Shown here: positions 693 to 6,241 of the stretch, piece after piece
How positions within the stretch are numbered: position 1 is the stretch's first letter
Layout: each line of letters opens with the position of its first letter
Notes under the pieces: model-generated
Databases searched by the model: none
What the model saw: the letters and a program-made list of their open reading frames with translations, nothing else
What the model was told of the DNA's origin: nothing
Source: a virus
Virus genome (UHGV): UHGV-0871375
Length of the DNA: 22,023 bases
Reading direction: 5' to 3' (one strand)
Position numbers and translations under genes: made by a program

Positions 693-734
693 TCTGAACT
701 CGCTACGGCGAGTTTTGTTTTATGGAGACAAGAA

Positions 735-1079
735 ATGTCAGATTTGGCTATGAAGGTTTTGAAATGGCAATCGACTGGCGATGTTGGCATCAGTAGCGCA
801 ACTCTTGCCTCAATCGCATGTGGACTGAAAAAGAATATCTATGGTCATAGCTTCGGTGCTCCACATGACGCAGCCGATTTCAGACGATGCGTTGCACTTG
901 TTGAGCAGATTCCAGAAATCAGAGATTCATTCGACAAGGTTGCAAAGCGCGTTCCGGCATTCAAAGGAATCCTCAACGAATGGGATTTCCTCGTTGCTCT
1001 TTTGAAGTCTGAAATGAAGATACACGGAAACAAAGCACCAGAGACTTACAGAAGAATCAGCGAGCTACGCAAGGACTAA
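735..1079 (+). CDS. hypothetical early-region protein (114 aa)
   Basis: Clean 114-codon ORF with GGAGA RBS about 8 nt upstream of the ATG; terminator-like hairpins on both sides. No family recognised. Confidence 0.65.
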   Translation: MSDLAMKVLKWQSTGDVGISSATLASIACGLKKNIYGHSFGAPHDAADFRRCVALVEQIPEIRDSFDKVAKRVPAFKGILNEWDFLVALLKSEMKIHGNKAPETYRRISELRKD

Positions 1080-1136
1080 CCCGCCTCACACTCGATGAGG
1101 CCTGTTCATTTCTCAAGATATCCAGACCTACCATCG

Positions 1137-1156
1137 CCGCATCAATGCGGTTTTTT
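1137..1156 (+). terminator. short hairpin plus T6 run upstream of xis
   Basis: ccgca-tcaa-tgcgg followed by TTTTTT at 1151-1156. Short stem, so weak. Confidence 0.35.
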
Positions 1157-1157
1157 C

Positions 1158-1200
1158 TTGCGTGTAATTGCGGAGACTTTGCGATGTACTTGACACTTCA
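1158..1200 (+). promoter_or_regulatory. pI-like promoter with CII box (TTGC-N6-TTGC)
   Basis: TTGCGTGTAATTGC at 1158-1171 matches the lambda CII recognition repeat and the surrounding sequence matches lambda pI as I recall it. Its position overlapping the xis start is the lambda arrangement that lets Int be made without Xis. Confidence 0.55.
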
Positions 1201-1402
1201 GGAGTGGAACGCTCGCCAGCGACGCCCAAGAAGCCTTGAAACAGTTCGTCGATGGGTGCGCGAATGCAGGATATTCCCTCCTCCGGTTAAGGATGGAAGA
1301 GAGTATCTGTTCCACGAATCAGCGGTAAAGGTTGACTTAAATCGACCAGTAACAGGTAGCCTTTTGAAGAGGATCAGAAATGGGAAGAAGGCGAAGTCAT
1401 GA
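1184..1402 (+). CDS. xis: excisionase Xis (72 aa), lambda-type
   Basis: Translation MYLTLQEWNARQRRPRSLETVRRWVRECRIFPPPVKDGREYLFHESAVKVDL... is essentially lambda Xis from memory. The true start is the ATG at 1184, not the upstream ATG at 1145 used by the ORF track. The 3' end overlaps int as in lambda. Confidence 0.9.
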   Translation: MYLTLQEWNARQRRPRSLETVRRWVRECRIFPPPVKDGREYLFHESAVKVDLNRPVTGSLLKRIRNGKKAKS

Positions 1403-2453
1403 GCGCCGGGATTTACCCCCTAACCTTTATATAAGAAACAATGGATATTACTGCTACAGGGACCCAAGGACGGGTAAAGAGTTCGGATTAGGCAGAGACA
1501 GGAGGATAGCAATTACTGAAACAATACAGGCCAATATTGAGTTACTCTCAGACAGCGGACGCAAATCACTGATAGACAGAATTAAAGGCGGTGACGCAAT
1601 CACTCTTCATGTGTGGCTTGACCGATATGAAAGAATCCTCACCGAAAGGGGGATCAGGCCGAAAACTCTACTCGACTACGCCAGCAAAATCAGGGCAATC
1701 CGAAGAAAATTGCCGGACAAACCGCTCACTGACATATCAACGAAAGAAGTGGCAGCAATGCTAAACACCTACGTAGCAGAAGGTAAAGCAGCTTCCGCAA
1801 AATTAATCAGGTCAACCCTTGTTGACGTTTTTCGTGAAGCAATAGCCGAGGGGCATGTGGCAACGAATCCGGTAACAGCAACCCGTACAGCAAAGTCAGA
1901 AGTAAGGCGCTCAAGGCTGACAGCTAATGAGTATGTCGAGATTTACCATGCAGCCGAACCTCTCCCTATCTGGCTAAGGCTGGCGATGGATTTGGCCGTC
2001 GTTACAGGGCAGAGAGTCGGCGATTTGTGCAGAATGAAATGGTCAGACATAAACGACAACCATCTTCACATTGAACAGAGTAAAACAGGGGCTAAACTCG
2101 CCATTCCGCTAACGCTAACGATTGACGCGCTCAATATCTCATTGGCTGATACACTACAGAAATGCAGGGAGGCCAGCAGCAGTGAAACTATAATCGCATC
2201 AAAGCATCACGATCCGCTTTCCCCGAAAACAGTATCAAAGTATTTTACAAAGGCGAGAAATGCATCTGGACTCTCATTTGATGGAAACCCGCCAACATTC
2301 CATGAACTGCGTAGCCTGTCAGCGAGGCTATACCGGAACCAGATTGGCGATAAGTTTGCTCAACGTCTTCTCGGGCATAAATCAGATTCAATGGCGGCGC
2401 GGTATAGGGACAGCCGTGGACGGGAATGGGACAAAATTGAAATCGACAAATGA
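1380..2453 (+). CDS. int: tyrosine integrase, lambda Int family (357 aa)
   Basis: The first ~47 aa (arm-binding domain) match lambda Int as recalled. Catalytic residues are present in lambda-like context (VTGQRVGDL, EQSKTG, HELRSL, LLGHKS, ARYRD). Residues ~55-170 (core-binding domain) are clearly diverged from lambda. Confidence 0.95.
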   Translation: MGRRRSHERRDLPPNLYIRNNGYYCYRDPRTGKEFGLGRDRRIAITETIQANIELLSDSGRKSLIDRIKGGDAITLHVWLDRYERILTERGIRPKTLLDYASKIRAIRRKLPDKPLTDISTKEVAAMLNTYVAEGKAASAKLIRSTLVDVFREAIAEGHVATNPVTATRTAKSEVRRSRLTANEYVEIYHAAEPLPIWLRLAMDLAVVTGQRVGDLCRMKWSDINDNHLHIEQSKTGAKLAIPLTLTIDALNISLADTLQKCREASSSETIIASKHHDPLSPKTVSKYFTKARNASGLSFDGNPPTFHELRSLSARLYRNQIGDKFAQRLLGHKSDSMAARYRDSRGREWDKIEIDK

Positions 2454-2680
2454 TTTTATTTTGACTAATAATGACCTGCCCACATTAATTCATTGATAAT
2501 AAAAGAGATTTTAAATATACAACTTATTCACCTAAAGGGTGATAAAATCATACAAATCACCTAAAAATCATATAGTTGCATGCATTAGTGGTTAAATAAC
2601 AGACTACAAAATGCTACAAAACACAACATATCCAGTCACTATGAATCAACCACTTAGATGGTATTAGTGACCTGTAACAG
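2454..2680. other. attP-like attachment region with lambda-type arm sites; core not identified
   Basis: 2600-2680 is close to the reverse complement of the lambda attP P arm, including arm-type sites CAGTCACTAT (2631-2640) and TTAGTGACCT (2664-2673). A P'-arm-like site with one change (ATAATGACCT) lies at ~2472-2481. The lambda core GCTTTTTTATACTAA is absent; a CAACTTATT core-type-like motif sits at 2520-2528. Confidence 0.55.
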
Positions 2681-2684
2681 AGCA

Positions 2685-2726
2685 TTAGCGCAAGGTGATT
2701 TTTTGTCTTCTTGCGCTAATTTTTTG
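2685..2726 (+). terminator. sib/tI-like hairpin terminator downstream of int and attP
   Basis: ttagcgcaag ... cttgcgctaa inverted repeat followed by TTTTTT; matches my memory of the lambda sib/tI retroregulation element and lies in the same relative position. Confidence 0.6.
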
Positions 2727-3020
2727 TCAACACACTGGGTTGGCTTAATTTACAACCATGCTCAGTATCTCGATAAGCGCAGAGAAATGATGCAATGGTG
2801 GGCGGACTGGCTTGATGAAAAGGTGGAGTGATCCACCTTAACTATCGAATGACACAAATCCTTGCAATCCAGTGCAAAGCTTTGTGTACCTTAGTTTTGT
2901 CTCATAGGTAATTCTGCTTTAACTGCGATGCAGGAATCTGTCACCAGACGCACGTCTCGTTGTTTTATGGTTTTCCGTTCATGATTAATATGTTAGCTTG
3001 TCAAAGTTTGTGTTTAAGAT

Positions 3021-3691
3021 ATGGTGATTGATGCAATGTTAAGCGTTCAGATGACTCCACAAGCAAAAGTTAGCTTCGAGGAGCAATGTTTTTTTCATGC
3101 TTCAGGTCTTGTTGTTGCCCCAATAAATGTTGGAGCATTCTCCTACTTTGGCGCTAATTGTATGCTCGGCGGCTTTACGATGGGTAGATTTTGTTCAGTT
3201 GCTCCAGGAGTAAAAATTGGCCTTGGCGAGCATGAAACTGGGTATTTTTCTACGCATCCTTTTTCTTTGGCTCAAAAAATGGTTTTAAAATCCCTGATGG
3301 TATAGGAATGCAACGCGACCTCTCTCAACAGAAGCATGGTATACCAAGAATTGGTCATGACGTATGGATAGGTGCAAATGCGGTTATCAGGCGAGGTATA
3401 ACTATTGGTACTGGCGCTGTTATTGCTGCTGGCGCTATTGTCACCAAAAATGTCGAGCCATATTCAATCGTAGGTGGCGTTTCTGCAAAACACCTAGGGT
3501 ACAGATTTGAGGAATCAATCATCAAAGAGTTACTGGATAGCCAATGGTGGGAATATGATTTAAGCTCATTTATTGGGATTGATACAAGGACACCGACTAC
3601 TTTTTTAGAGCAGTTTAATGCTATAAAAGATAAAAAGAAGGCATCTTATAAGAGATTTACAATTCTTCCATCCGGTGAAATTGTTGAATAG
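3021..3691 (+). pseudogene. hexapeptide-repeat (left-handed beta-helix) acetyltransferase, XAT/CatB-Vat-like, split by a frameshift
   Basis: ORF 3021..3305 carries N-terminal motifs (SFEEQ..., GRFCSVAPG, STHPFSL) and ORF 3308..3691 in another frame carries the hexapeptide core ([13 protein letters not shown]...[12 protein letters not shown]...PYSIVGG) and a C-terminal WW motif (LLDSQWWEY). The two frames join into one ~215-aa protein (...HPFS[L/F][11 protein letters not shown]...) if one nucleotide is added in the T-rich stretch at ~3263-3269. Confidence 0.6.
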
Positions 3692-3712
3692 CGCATCCCT
3701 GCGCTATATTTT
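3690..3712. terminator. shared hairpin between the convergent acetyltransferase and tailspike genes
   Basis: agcgca-tccc-tgcgct perfect 6-bp stem at 3690-3705 lies in the 19-bp gap between the two stop codons, followed by ATATTTTA on the plus strand. Confidence 0.4.
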
Positions 3713-6077
3713 AAATAAACATAAGAATAAACATCAGAAGTTCCTCGTATCTGATACCATACTGATAACCAGCAGGTTTAATAATAACCTGCCTTCCTGT
3801 GTAATATTCCTCGTCGTACCACTCTCCTGTTTCATTGTTTTTAACACTCCTAATTAATACCTCTGGAGCATAAATATCATCCCATTCATCATAACACCAG
3901 AACGCATAGTTATTAGGGTCAAGACCGTATTTTCTGAGAATATTACCTACAGTTTGTGCACCAACACCGAAATGAATCCGAGCGCCATCACTCTTGATCT
4001 TTACTGCATCTTTAAATTTAAACCTCCAGATATTTTTCTTTATTTCAAGCGCAGCAAGACGCTCTGATTCTGTTGTTTTCTCGTCAGCCTCAATACGCAA
4101 TTTCAGCTCTTCATTCGACGTGTTGATACTGCCAGTACCAGCGTATACCTGTGACCATCGAAATGCTGATGTTCCGTTTGAGTTAACATTATCAACAGTT
4201 GGTTTTATAAGGCCAGAAAAATGAGTTTCAGGTGATGTATGAAGAAGATATCCGCCAGAATCGTTTTTTGTGCGTAATTCTATAGAGTCTACAATTATTC
4301 CACTGCGACGAATAATGATAGCGTTATTACCTTGTGCACCATTGTCTTTCTGAGTGGATAGTGTGTATCCGGTACGAGTATCTATCCTCCATCTTTTGGT
4401 ATCTTCTGATGCTTCCTGATTATAAAGATAAATAGAGTTATCAGTGTAATTATTTTTGCCATCAATATTTGTAAGTGTAAATGTGTTATTTACTTTGTCA
4501 TCATTGACCATTAAATTGGCAAGAGTGTAGAGAGGAGATGCAGTATACTGGCTGCAATTAAAACCACGTGCGTTTTGTATGTTAAGTAATGTTGTGACAT
4601 TAGCATTAATGCTAATATTGGAAAAGTTTGTCGCCTGATTTGCTCCATGTATTGATGATGTTACTCCTATCTGAGCTCCAATATCCAATGTACCAAAACT
4701 TACATTAATGAAGTTGTTTGCATCGCCACCATCTATAATTATTCCTTTTTTAGTCGTCGTATAACCTGATGCACTGCTAATCTCCAATCCATTAATGGTG
4801 CACACTCTTGGTCTGATGAGTCTAATTCCTACCCATTCATTTCCGTGGTCATATCCTCCTCCTGCTCTATGTATGGCTAGTCCATTAGCAATCAAAAGAA
4901 ATCTGTTATCAAGATTAATAGGGTGAAGCTGGCTATTAATGATAACGTTTGTCCATATAGACTCACCATACGCATAGCGATTTGATTCGAACACTCTATC
5001 CTGAGCATCATAAACACCGTTTAGGGATCTAGCAACATCGACATTGGTAAGATTGAAATATGTCTTCTGCTTAATTTCAAAAAAATTGGCAACGTTATGC
5101 GTTGTGATATCACTCACACGCATGGATAAAATACCTTCTTCTGGAGCGGTGCGAATGAATCCATCAAGGAACTGTTCATTATAACTTTTGGCTATCTGAT
5201 AACATCCAACAGCATCAATGCGTTCGATTGTGAACTGCCAACTATCACCACAGTTAAAAGACCATTCCCAACCGTACTTCTGTGCGAATTCATCAGAATC
5301 AATATTTGCAGTCTCAGAACAGAAAGATAAAAATCTAAATGTTGGTTTTGGCCTTAGATGATTAAGCCCGACACCTCTTGGGGTATATATGGCATTAGCG
5401 CCATTCCCGCCTTTGCTTTTAATTGTAAGGTGACTTAAACCAAATTCAACATCATGCTTAGTTGGTGCAGCGAAAACAAATCCATCTTTTGGTGATGTGG
5501 TATTATCAAACACAATAACCGTTTTACCCTGTCCATCGCCACACATATTCACTGGTGGTATATTAACTGGTCCAATTAAATTATATGTTCCAGTTGGAAT
5601 ATATAACTTTCCACCATCTCCAAGAGCATTTGCTGCTGCAATAAATGCCACCGTATCATCGTTAACACCGTCACCTTTCGCCCCATAATGCTGTGGCGTA
5701 ATTAACAGCATACGGTCAGAAAAAATCTCTTCCCTAAGTTGATCAGGATCGTATTTTAATACATTTGGAAAATAAAACTGCTGAGTGCCATATGCATCAT
5801 ATACAGCCATAGAATGGCCTTGCACAGTTACGAATTTGGCAATCTGCCCGTTATATACCGGATATCCAGCAGCGTTAATGATGATTGGTTGCGAAACAGG
5901 AACATGAGAGCCGTCTTCGTTCTCTACATAAACCTGAATCTGGTTTTCTGGACTTACCGGGTCAGTGTCAATTTTTCCGATATAAATTTTGCCGTTGGCT
6001 ACTGCTTTAAAAGAACGCGCCATAGTGAAAAGTTGCGAAGGCATACTCACTACAACATTGGCTGTAATGTCTGTCAT
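3711..6077 (-). CDS. tailspike protein (788 aa): P22-type head-binding N-domain, pectate-lyase-like beta-helix domain, C-terminal chaperone-like domain
   Basis: First ~110 aa ([41 protein letters not shown]...VTVQGHSMA) match the P22-family tailspike head-binding domain. [11 protein letters not shown] opens a right-handed beta-helix depolymerase-like region. The C-terminus ([11 protein letters not shown]...IWRFKFKD...[10 protein letters not shown]) resembles intramolecular chaperone (peptidase S74-type) domains. GGAG RBS is 9 nt upstream. Confidence 0.9.
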
Positions 6078-6241
6078 TTAATTTTCTCCAGACGTAGCAA
6101 TGCGGAACAAGATGCAACTTGCCCGGCATTGCATTAATGTAAGTTATGATTTGTTAACTATGAAATGAGTCTATGCAAAAAGATCTGTTGAATATTGCGT
6201 TCTATATATTTGGTTTTTGCACATTTCTGGTGTTTGCAAAG

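What the first reader, a model, noticed from the sequence alone, without database searches (positions are those of the whole stretch)
1380..2726. Lambda-type Int with conserved arm-binding domain and arm sites but diverged core-binding domain and a non-lambda core
The N-terminal ~47 aa and the P-arm sites (CAGTCACTAT, TTAGTGACCT) are lambda-like, and pI and sib/tI are retained. But Int residues ~55-170 are diverged and the lambda core GCTTTTTTATACTAA is absent. This implies the lambda recombination machinery retargeted to a different attB. The first P' arm-type site also carries a substitution (ATAATGACCT).
Basis: partly seen in the sequence, partly recalled or inferred. Interest (0 to 1): 0.5.

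Follow-up and report, generated by a model that had tools for sequence, protein, structure and literature searches.

The report
HK022-type integrase and attP module
This is the well-studied phage HK022 version of the lambda integration machinery (same arm sites, different core, inserting between the E. coli genes torS and torT), here carried by a P22-like phage; it is real but already known.

Summary
Int (1380-2453, 357 aa) is identical to lambda Int for its first 47 residues. xis, pI, the P1/P2 arm sites and sib/tI are 90-100% lambda-like. The rest of int and the core are not, and the lambda core is absent. Int is 96.4% identical to HK022 Int and 74.8% to lambda Int. Xis is identical to HK022 Xis. 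The known HK022 specificity residues (D99, P282, K283, K287, R319, R329) are all present. The core reads ACCCTTT-AGGTGAA-TAAGTTG, with the HK022 overlap AGGTGAA at 2527-2533. E. coli K-12 attB is GCACTTT-AGGTGAA-AAAGGTT, in the torS-torT intergenic region. attL and attR junctions built in silico from the window and K-12 occur at 100% identity in sequenced E. coli. About 195 of 5,426 complete genomes carry such junctions. One correction: divergence from lambda runs from residue ~55 to the C-terminus, not only 55-170. The ATAATGACCT P'1 variant is shared with HK022. The carrier is a P22-like phage, as published for phage Gally. A stump of a CUS-3-type integrase gene follows sib. Already known; low interest.

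The parts
735..1079 (+). 114-aa ORF of unknown function upstream of xis. It lies within the block shared with HK022.
   Evidence: HK022 homology runs from window 718 to 2730 at 95%. No Pfam hit.
1158..1171 (+). TTGC-N6-TTGC repeat of the cII-dependent pI promoter, just upstream of and overlapping the xis start.
   Evidence: Read directly. The 1160-1219 segment is 98.3% identical to lambda. The mEp235 record annotates a lambda cII site under the match. Function is inferred from lambda.
1184..1402 (+). xis, excisionase, 72 aa.
   Evidence: Pfam Exc PF07825, E = 3.9e-41. Identical to HK022 Xis and 1 residue different from lambda Xis, S59 against G59.
1380..2453 (+). int, an HK022-type heterobivalent tyrosine integrase of 357 aa. 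Arm-binding domain about 1-64, core-binding domain about 65-169, catalytic domain about 170-357.
   Evidence: Pfam Arm-DNA-bind_1, SAM-like and Phage_integrase domains. 96.4% identical to HK022 Int and 74.8% to lambda Int. Catalytic R212, K235, H308, R311, H333, Y342 are present. HK022 specificity residues D99, P282, K283, K287, R319 are present.
2454..2526 (.). P' arm of attP, 73 bp. P'3-P'2-P'1 arm-type sites lie at about 2454-2477, with P'1 = ATAATGACCT at 2468-2477. The IHF H' site is at 2486-2498.
   Evidence: Alignment to HK022 and lambda. Exact IHF consensus TATCAATGAATTA on the minus strand. The 73-bp distance from the int stop to the junction equals that reported for HK022 (PMC6814406).
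2520..2540 (-). attP core. On the minus strand it reads C = ACCCTTT, overlap O = AGGTGAA (2527-2533), C' = TAAGTTG.
   Evidence: The HK022 core is ATCCTTT-AGGTGAA-TAAGTTG in the X51962.1 sequence. K-12 attB is GCACTTT-AGGTGAA-AAAGGTT. The two alignment blocks to the GF4 prophage meet at window 2520-2537.
2541..2676 (.). P arm of attP. H2-like IHF site at 2566-2578, Xis X2/X1 region at about 2595-2632, P2 at 2633-2642, IHF H1 at 2644-2656, P1 at 2664-2673.
   Evidence: Alignment A2, IHF scan, arm-site scan. 2540-2599 is the least conserved part: 72% to HK022 and 48% to lambda. The X1/X2 assignment is by alignment to lambda and relies on my recollection of the lambda sites.
2677..2726 (+). sib retroregulation site and tI terminator hairpin followed by a T-run.
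   Evidence: Identical to lambda and HK022 except for one extra T. Annotated as 'sib transcription processing site' in X51962.1. Folds at -24.2 kcal/mol, z = -6.24.
2727..2831 (+). Stump of the 3' end of a different, CUS-3-type integrase gene. It marks the right-hand joint where the HK022-type cassette replaced the earlier integrase.
   Evidence: HK022 homology ends at 2730. Window 2748-2864 matches CUS-3 1266-1385, the last 84 nt of its int (192-1349) and beyond. RefSeq annotates the equivalent stretch as 'integrase, missing N-terminus' in EC5931.

Best explanation
Window 718-2730 is an HK022-type site-specific recombination cassette: small ORF, pI, xis, int, attP, sib/tI. It sits in a P22-like (Lederbergvirus) phage genome. 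Int is a heterobivalent tyrosine recombinase. Its N-terminal domain, identical to lambda's for 47 residues, binds the lambda-type arm sites P1, P2 and P'1-3. Its core-binding and catalytic domains carry the HK022 specificity residues and recognise the HK022-type core ACCCTTT-AGGTGAA-TAAGTTG. With IHF bending attP at H', H2 and H1, Int exchanges strands across the 7-bp overlap AGGTGAA with the 21-bp attB GCACTTT-AGGTGAA-AAAGGTT. That attB lies in the 82-bp torS-torT intergenic region, just upstream of torS. The resulting order is torT-attR-(sib, tailspike ... xis, int)-attL-torS. Xis, identical to HK022 Xis, directs excision. pI (cII-dependent) and sib regulate int as in lambda.

Shown here: sequence identity, domain and residue content, site layout, identity of the core with attB, and natural attL/attR junctions. 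Inferred from lambda and HK022 biochemistry: the strand-exchange mechanism, the IHF and Xis roles, and the pI/sib regulation.
For: - DNA is 94.7-95% identical to HK022 int-xis-attP-sib, whose record annotates int, xis, attP and sib.
- Int is 96.4% identical to HK022 Int and Xis is 100% identical.
- D99, P282, K283, K287, R319 and R329 match HK022, not lambda. N99D and H329R are cited as HK022 specificity switches in PMC10863862, and R319 in PMC7736782.
- The overlap AGGTGAA is identical in the window, HK022 and K-12 attB.
- Chimeric attL and attR built from the window plus K-12 flanks occur at 100% identity over 307 and 347 nt in real genomes. 194 and 198 of 5,426 complete E. coli genomes cover at least 80% of them, always next to torS and torT.
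- The GF4 prophage carries the same cassette at 99.3-99.7%, split exactly at 2520-2537.
- The only two exact IHF consensus matches in the 22 kb lie in attP.
- Literature: HK022 integrates between torS and torT, and about 5% of E. coli genomes carry HK022-like-Int prophages there (PMC6814406). The P22-like phage Gally sits at this site (PMC9928086) and is 93.6% identical over window 1100-2900.
Against: No recombination assay exists for this particular copy. The C core site differs from HK022 at one position, ACCCTTT against ATCCTTT. Int has 13 substitutions relative to HK022, clustered in residues 48-137. The P-arm segment 2540-2599 is only 72% identical to HK022. None of this argues for another target. 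attR junctions that retain this exact C site and P arm exist at 100% identity at torT.
Confidence: 0.96

Rival explanations
1. A new integration specificity: a lambda/HK022-like Int retargeted to an attB that is neither lambda's nor HK022's, driven by the C-site change and the 13 Int substitutions.
For: One substitution in the C core site and six substitutions in the core-binding domain relative to HK022. The P-arm segment 2540-2599 is only 72% identical to HK022.
Against: The overlap and C' are identical to HK022, and all the specificity residues checked are of HK022 type. Prophages with this exact attP variant sit at torS-torT, with 100% attL and attR matches. The changed base is the second from the outer end of C. 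The outer two positions of the 7-bp core sites were reported dispensable for HK022 Int (PMC7736782).
Confidence: 0.02
2. A lambda-specificity Int whose lambda-type core was overlooked or lies elsewhere in the window.
For: The N-terminal domain, Xis, arm sites, pI and sib are lambda-like.
Against: No match to GCTTTTTTATACTAA with up to 3 mismatches anywhere in 22 kb. Residues 99, 282, 283, 287 and 319 are those of HK022, not lambda. Identity to lambda is about 50% across 2480-2599.
Confidence: 0.005
3. An inert relic: the cassette is a non-functional passenger, and the phage does not integrate or uses another recombinase.
For: A second integrase fragment lies at 2727-2831. An intact attP is found inside a chromosome in strain EC5931.
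Against: The int and xis ORFs are intact with all catalytic residues. The other integrase is only a 3' stump. The intact chromosomal attP in EC5931 is explained by a tandem dilysogen flanked by proper attR at torT and attL at torS. Near-identical cassettes are integrated at attB in many unrelated strains.
Confidence: 0.02

Closest known systems
Phage HK022 Int/Xis/attP (Yagil et al. 1989, record X51962.1; attB between torS and torT)
   Same: Same gene order and length: Int 357 aa, Xis 72 aa. Int is 96.4% identical and Xis 100%. The DNA is 95% identical over window 718-2730. Same overlap AGGTGAA and the same C' site. Same P'1 variant ATAATGACCT. The same 73-bp distance from the int stop to the junction. 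Same attB.
   Different: 13 Int substitutions: A48T, G58D, N59S, R60G, E62K, A71G, A78V, T85R, S88T, A117T, S137A, A187E, Q261K. One base differs in the C site. The core-proximal P arm is about 72% identical. The carrier is a P22-like podovirus rather than the HK022 siphovirus. Downstream of sib the sequences are unrelated.
Phage lambda Int/Xis/attP
   Same: The first 47 Int residues are identical, and Xis differs at 1 residue. The P1, P2 and P'3 arm sites, the IHF H1 site, the pI region and sib/tI are 90-100% identical. Same three-domain architecture and catalytic residues, and presumably the same mechanism.
   Different: Int is 74.8% identical overall: 69.5% in the core-binding domain and 72.9% in the catalytic domain. 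The core and overlap differ (AGGTGAA against TTTATAC), and the lambda core is absent. attB is torS-torT instead of gal-bio. P'1 and P'2 each carry one substitution.
Escherichia phage Gally (prophage of AIEC LF82) and the torS-torT prophage of E. coli GF4; Stx1a-converting phages and H19J
   Same: Gally and the GF4 prophage are P22-like phages carrying the HK022-type cassette with the same integrase stump after sib. Gally is 93.6-93.7% identical over 715-2938, and GF4 is 99.3-99.7% over 1147-4234. The Stx1a phages share xis-int-P' arm at 98.5-98.9% up to the core at 2537.
   Different: The remainder of the genome is mosaic, including the middle of the tailspike, the immunity region and morons. 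The Stx1a phages are lambdoid Stx converters, not P22-like.

Membership tests
HK022-type integration module | Int protein closely related to HK022 Int along its full length | tested here: met
   344/357 identical (96.4%), with no indels.
HK022-type integration module | Core-specificity residues of HK022 rather than lambda (D99, P282, K283, K287, R319; also R329) | tested here: met
   All are present. The list of five is from my recollection of Dorgai et al. 1995 (pmid 7674300). N99D and H329R are confirmed in PMC10863862, and R319 in PMC7736782.
HK022-type integration module | attP core with 7-bp overlap AGGTGAA flanked by HK022-type C and C' sites | tested here: met
   The core is ACCCTTT-AGGTGAA-TAAGTTG at 2520-2540 (minus strand). 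The overlap and C' are identical to HK022, and C differs at 1 of 7 positions.
HK022-type integration module | attB in the torS-torT intergenic region, with prophage junctions there | tested here: met
   K-12 attB is GCACTTTAGGTGAAAAAGGTT, just upstream of torS. Predicted attL and attR are found at 100% identity in natural genomes next to torS and torT. The GF4 prophage is split at the core.
HK022-type integration module | Int-catalysed attP x attB recombination demonstrated for this element | not testable with these tools
   Requires an in vivo or in vitro assay. Only natural junctions of near-identical cassettes were observed.
Lambda-family heterobivalent tyrosine integrases (arm-binding plus core-binding plus catalytic domains) | Arm-DNA-binding N domain, SAM-like core-binding domain, and a tyrosine recombinase catalytic domain with the R-K-H-R-H-Y residues | tested here: met
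   PF09003 E = 1.1e-27, PF02899 E = 6.4e-14, PF00589 E = 1.8e-41. R212, K235, H308, R311, H333 and Y342 are invariant.
Lambda-family heterobivalent tyrosine integrases (arm-binding plus core-binding plus catalytic domains) | attP with arm-type Int sites and IHF/Xis accessory sites flanking the core | tested here: met
   P1, P2 and P'1-3 by alignment. IHF consensus at 2486-2498 and 2644-2656 (exact) and at 2566-2578 (1 mismatch). The Xis-site region aligns with lambda.
Lambda-specificity Int/attP (lambda, 434, HK97 type) | Core GCTTTTTTATACTAA with overlap TTTATAC | tested here: not met
   0 matches with up to 3 mismatches in the whole window. The aligned position carries a different sequence.

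The most novel reading that the evidence does not exclude
The single C-site change (ATCCTTT to ACCCTTT), together with the cluster of substitutions in the N-domain/core-binding linker and core-binding domain (residues 48-137), could mark a co-evolved sub-variant of HK022 Int. Such a variant might have quantitatively altered core recognition or secondary-site preference. It is shared with Stx1a-converting phages and P22-like prophages and would be of some use for HK022-Int genome-engineering work.
Probability: 0.07. Interest if true: 0.3.

Novelty: already known. Interest (0 to 1): 0.1.

Why it matters
It matters little as a discovery. HK022 against lambda is the classic example of an integrase keeping its arm specificity while changing its core specificity. 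Prophages with HK022-like Int at torS-torT are documented in about 5% of E. coli genomes, including P22-like ones such as Gally.

The practical value is annotation. The phage in this window can be predicted with confidence to lysogenise at torS-torT. By analogy with HK022 (PMC6814406), it would then displace the native torS promoter and change aerobic torCAD (TMAO reductase) regulation in its host. The integrase stump after sib is a tidy example of integration-module swapping between lambdoid siphoviruses and P22-like podoviruses.

Tried and rejected
- Searching for arm-type decamers as a statistical signal gave 31 hits against 30.6 expected at 2 mismatches. It is uninformative by itself, so alignment context was used instead.
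- The simple terminator scan did not report sib/tI, because its apical region (an inner 3-bp helix closed by a 5-nt loop above a bulge) does not fit the scan's simple stem-loop pattern. Folding confirmed the hairpin.
- An exact-pattern scan of one genome per species for the attR-side core found nothing. The same kind of scan in IMG/VR returned only HK022 and mEp235. These gave no host-range information beyond E. coli.
- The first megablast of attP against E. coli genomes was dominated by hits at about 78% identity that cover nearly the whole attP query, which I read as lambda-type attP. It did not reveal junctions directly, so chimeric attL/attR queries were used instead.
- I considered that the intact attP inside the EC5931 chromosome meant integration by another route. 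I rejected this after finding a tandem dilysogen flanked by torT and torS.
- A literature search for N99D/E319R returned mostly unrelated papers.
- The large protein-database, structure-prediction and fold-search tools were not used. The DNA-level identification made them unnecessary.

Full report
**What is in the sequence.** The flagged interval holds an intact 357-aa ORF at 1380-2453 on the + strand. It overlaps the end of a 72-aa ORF at 1184-1402. A 277-bp AT-rich non-coding stretch follows at 2454-2730. Pfam identifies the two proteins:
- The larger is a three-domain lambda-type integrase: Arm-DNA-bind_1 E = 1.1e-27, SAM-like core-binding domain E = 6.4e-14, Phage_integrase E = 1.8e-41.
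- The smaller is an excisionase: Exc, E = 3.9e-41.

**Check of the observation.** Aligned with lambda Int, residues 1-47 are identical and the first difference is at residue 48.
- CAGTCACTAT at 2633-2642 and TTAGTGACCT at 2664-2673.
- ATAATGACCT at 2468-2477.

The decamer consensus alone is not above chance in 22 kb: 31 hits against 30.6 expected at two mismatches. The surrounding DNA, however, is 90-98% identical to lambda over 2600-2719 and 93-100% over 1160-1459. The sites are therefore homologous, not coincidental.

The sib/tI hairpin at about 2677-2726 equals lambda's except for one extra T. It folds at -24.2 kcal/mol, z = -6.2. The TTGC-N6-TTGC motif of pI is at 1158-1171. The lambda core GCTTTTTTATACTAA has no match with up to three mismatches anywhere in the window.

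One correction is needed. Divergence from lambda is not limited to residues 55-170. Identity to lambda is 66% over 55-170 and 73% over 170-357. Nucleotide identity stays at 58-72% across 1520-2419.

**What it is.** A megablast of window 1100-2900 against phage records returns coliphage HK022 at 94.7% over 1,631 nt. The match includes record X51962.1, which annotates int (357 aa), xis (72 aa), the attP site and the sib site. Homology to HK022 runs from window 718 to 2730 at 95% and stops immediately after sib/tI.
- Int is 344/357 (96.4%) identical to HK022 Int and 74.8% to lambda Int.
- Xis is identical to HK022 Xis and differs from lambda Xis at one residue.
- At the positions known to switch lambda Int to HK022 core specificity, the window has the HK022 residues: D99, P282, K283, K287, R319 and R329.
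- The basis for those positions is Dorgai et al. 1995 as I recall it. N99D and H329R are confirmed in PMC10863862 and R319 in PMC7736782.
- The catalytic residues R212, K235, H308, R311, H333 and Y342 are all present.

**The core and the bacterial site.** In the three-way alignment the window and HK022 share ...ACAACTTATTCACCTAAAGG... where lambda has its own core. Read on the minus strand:
- The window core is ACCCTTT-AGGTGAA-TAAGTTG, with the overlap at 2527-2533.
- HK022 has ATCCTTT-AGGTGAA-TAAGTTG.
- E. coli K-12 carries GCACTTT-AGGTGAA-AAAGGTT in the 82-bp gap between the divergent genes torS and torT, a few bases upstream of the annotated torS start.

I built the two junctions expected from recombination within the overlap, using window P' arm + torS flank and torT flank + window P arm. 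I then searched all complete E. coli genomes. Both chimeras are found at 100% identity over their full 307 and 347 nt in several strains. 194 and 198 of 5,426 genomes contain a place covering at least 80% of them, always annotated torS plus integrase, or torT.

In strain GF4 the two junctions lie 42 kb apart and bracket a P22-like prophage. The window aligns to that prophage in two blocks:
- 1147-2537 at 99.7%, ending at attL next to torS.
- 2520-4234 at 99.3%, starting at attR next to torT.

The blocks overlap by only the 18 bp around the core. It fixes the crossover region at 2520-2537. Stx1a-converting prophage records also break at window 2537 and annotate a 15-bp duplication there.

**attP anatomy.**
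- The P' arm is 73 bp from the int stop to the overlap, the same distance reported for HK022 (PMC6814406).
- The only two exact matches to the IHF consensus WATCAANNNNTTR in the whole 22-kb window fall inside attP. They lie at 2486-2498 (H' position) and 2644-2656 (H1 position).
- A one-mismatch match at 2566-2578 aligns with lambda H2.
- The Xis-site region next to P2 aligns well with lambda, as expected for a virtually identical Xis.
- The least conserved part is the core-proximal P arm at 2540-2599: 72% to HK022 and 48% to lambda.

**Mechanism.** By homology with the lambda and HK022 systems, the N-terminal domain of Int binds the arm sites. The core-binding and catalytic domains bind C/C' and B/B'. 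IHF bends the arms to form the intasome. Two pairs of strand exchanges, 7 bp apart across AGGTGAA, integrate the phage between torT and torS. Xis redirects the reaction to excision. pI allows cII-dependent int expression without xis, and sib provides retroregulation.

The sequence features and natural junctions are shown here. The biochemical steps are inferred from the literature on lambda and HK022 (PMC7736782).

In the prophage, int and its P' arm face torS. For HK022 a phage-borne promoter in this position replaces the native torS promoters and abolishes aerobic torCAD expression (PMC6814406). Sigma-70-like hexamers reading toward the core occur at 2443-2472 and 2471-2500. That is only a consensus match.

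**Context.** The rest of the window is a P22-like (Lederbergvirus) structural region: tailspike, ejection proteins, portal and terminase. The best whole-module match among phages is Gally, at 93.6% over window 1100-2900. Gally is the published P22-like prophage of E. coli LF82 that sits between torS and torT (PMC9928086).

Right after sib, window 2748-2831 matches the last 84 nt of the integrase gene of phage CUS-3. RefSeq annotates the equivalent stretch in E. coli EC5931 as an integrase missing its N-terminus. The HK022-type cassette therefore replaced an earlier integrase in a P22-like backbone and left a stump.

**Comparison with what is known, and novelty.** All testable defining features of the HK022-type module are met. 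The defining feature of lambda specificity, the lambda core, is not. The differences from HK022 itself are:
- 13 amino-acid substitutions.
- One base in the outer part of the C site.
- A diverged core-proximal P arm.

These differences are shared with natural prophages integrated at torS-torT, so they do not change the target. The outer two positions of the 7-bp core sites are reported dispensable for HK022 Int (PMC7736782).

The prevalence of such prophages was reported as about 5% of E. coli genomes. I find about 3.6% with near-full junction matches.

**Verdict.** The feature is already known and of low interest.

Noticed in passing
window 2727-2831 (+): 3' stump of a CUS-3-type integrase gene directly after sib/tI. 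The reading frame ends ...YNHAQYLDKRREMMQWWADWLDEKVE, and 2748-2864 is 90% identical to CUS-3 1266-1385. It is the scar of an integration-module swap into a P22-like backbone, and is also present in Gally, GF4 and EC5931.
   Followed up: partly
window 3021-3691 (+), T-tracts at 3089-3095 and 3260-3264: A hexapeptide-repeat O-acetyltransferase gene is split into 94-aa and 127-aa ORFs. Compared with the intact 606-nt CatB-related gene in the E. coli GF4 prophage, the window has T7 instead of T6 and T5 instead of T6. This could be phase variation, a pseudogene or a sequencing error.
   Followed up: partly
window 3711-6077 (-): The 788-aa tailspike is mosaic relative to the GF4 prophage. 3711-4234 is 99% identical, 5056-6092 is 93%, and the central part 4235-5055 has no match. 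This suggests an exchanged receptor-binding domain.
   Followed up: no
L005 and L010 (E. coli EC5931, NZ_CP104592.1, about 2974834-3055950): Two copies of a P22-like prophage lie in tandem between torT and torS, in the order torT-attR-prophage-int-attP-prophage-int-attL-torS. This explains an intact HK022-type attP inside a chromosome. The window itself could therefore come from either a phage genome or such a dilysogen.
   Followed up: yes
window 2443-2500 (+): Two overlapping sigma-70-like promoter matches (TCGACA-18-AATAAT and ATGACC-18-GATAAT) lie in the int 3' end and P' arm and read toward the core. In a lysogen they would point at torS. They are candidates for the phage-borne torS promoter mapped in HK022.
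   Followed up: no
window 2853-2890: A 38-nt stretch is 92% identical to lambda 27471-27508 (just beyond sib in the lambda b region), although the flanks are unrelated. It is a small mosaic fragment.
   Followed up: no
window 735-1079 (+): A 114-aa ORF with no Pfam hit lies inside the block shared with HK022 and Gally, upstream of xis. Its function is unknown.
   Followed up: no
one search hits, e.g. NZ_CP025318.1 2714844-2715133: Many STEC genomes (O157, O26, O103, O111, O121) carry a match at 78% identity that spans almost the whole attP query (1-290) next to an integrase gene. I did not work out why an apparently unsplit attP-like stretch sits in these chromosomes.
   Followed up: no
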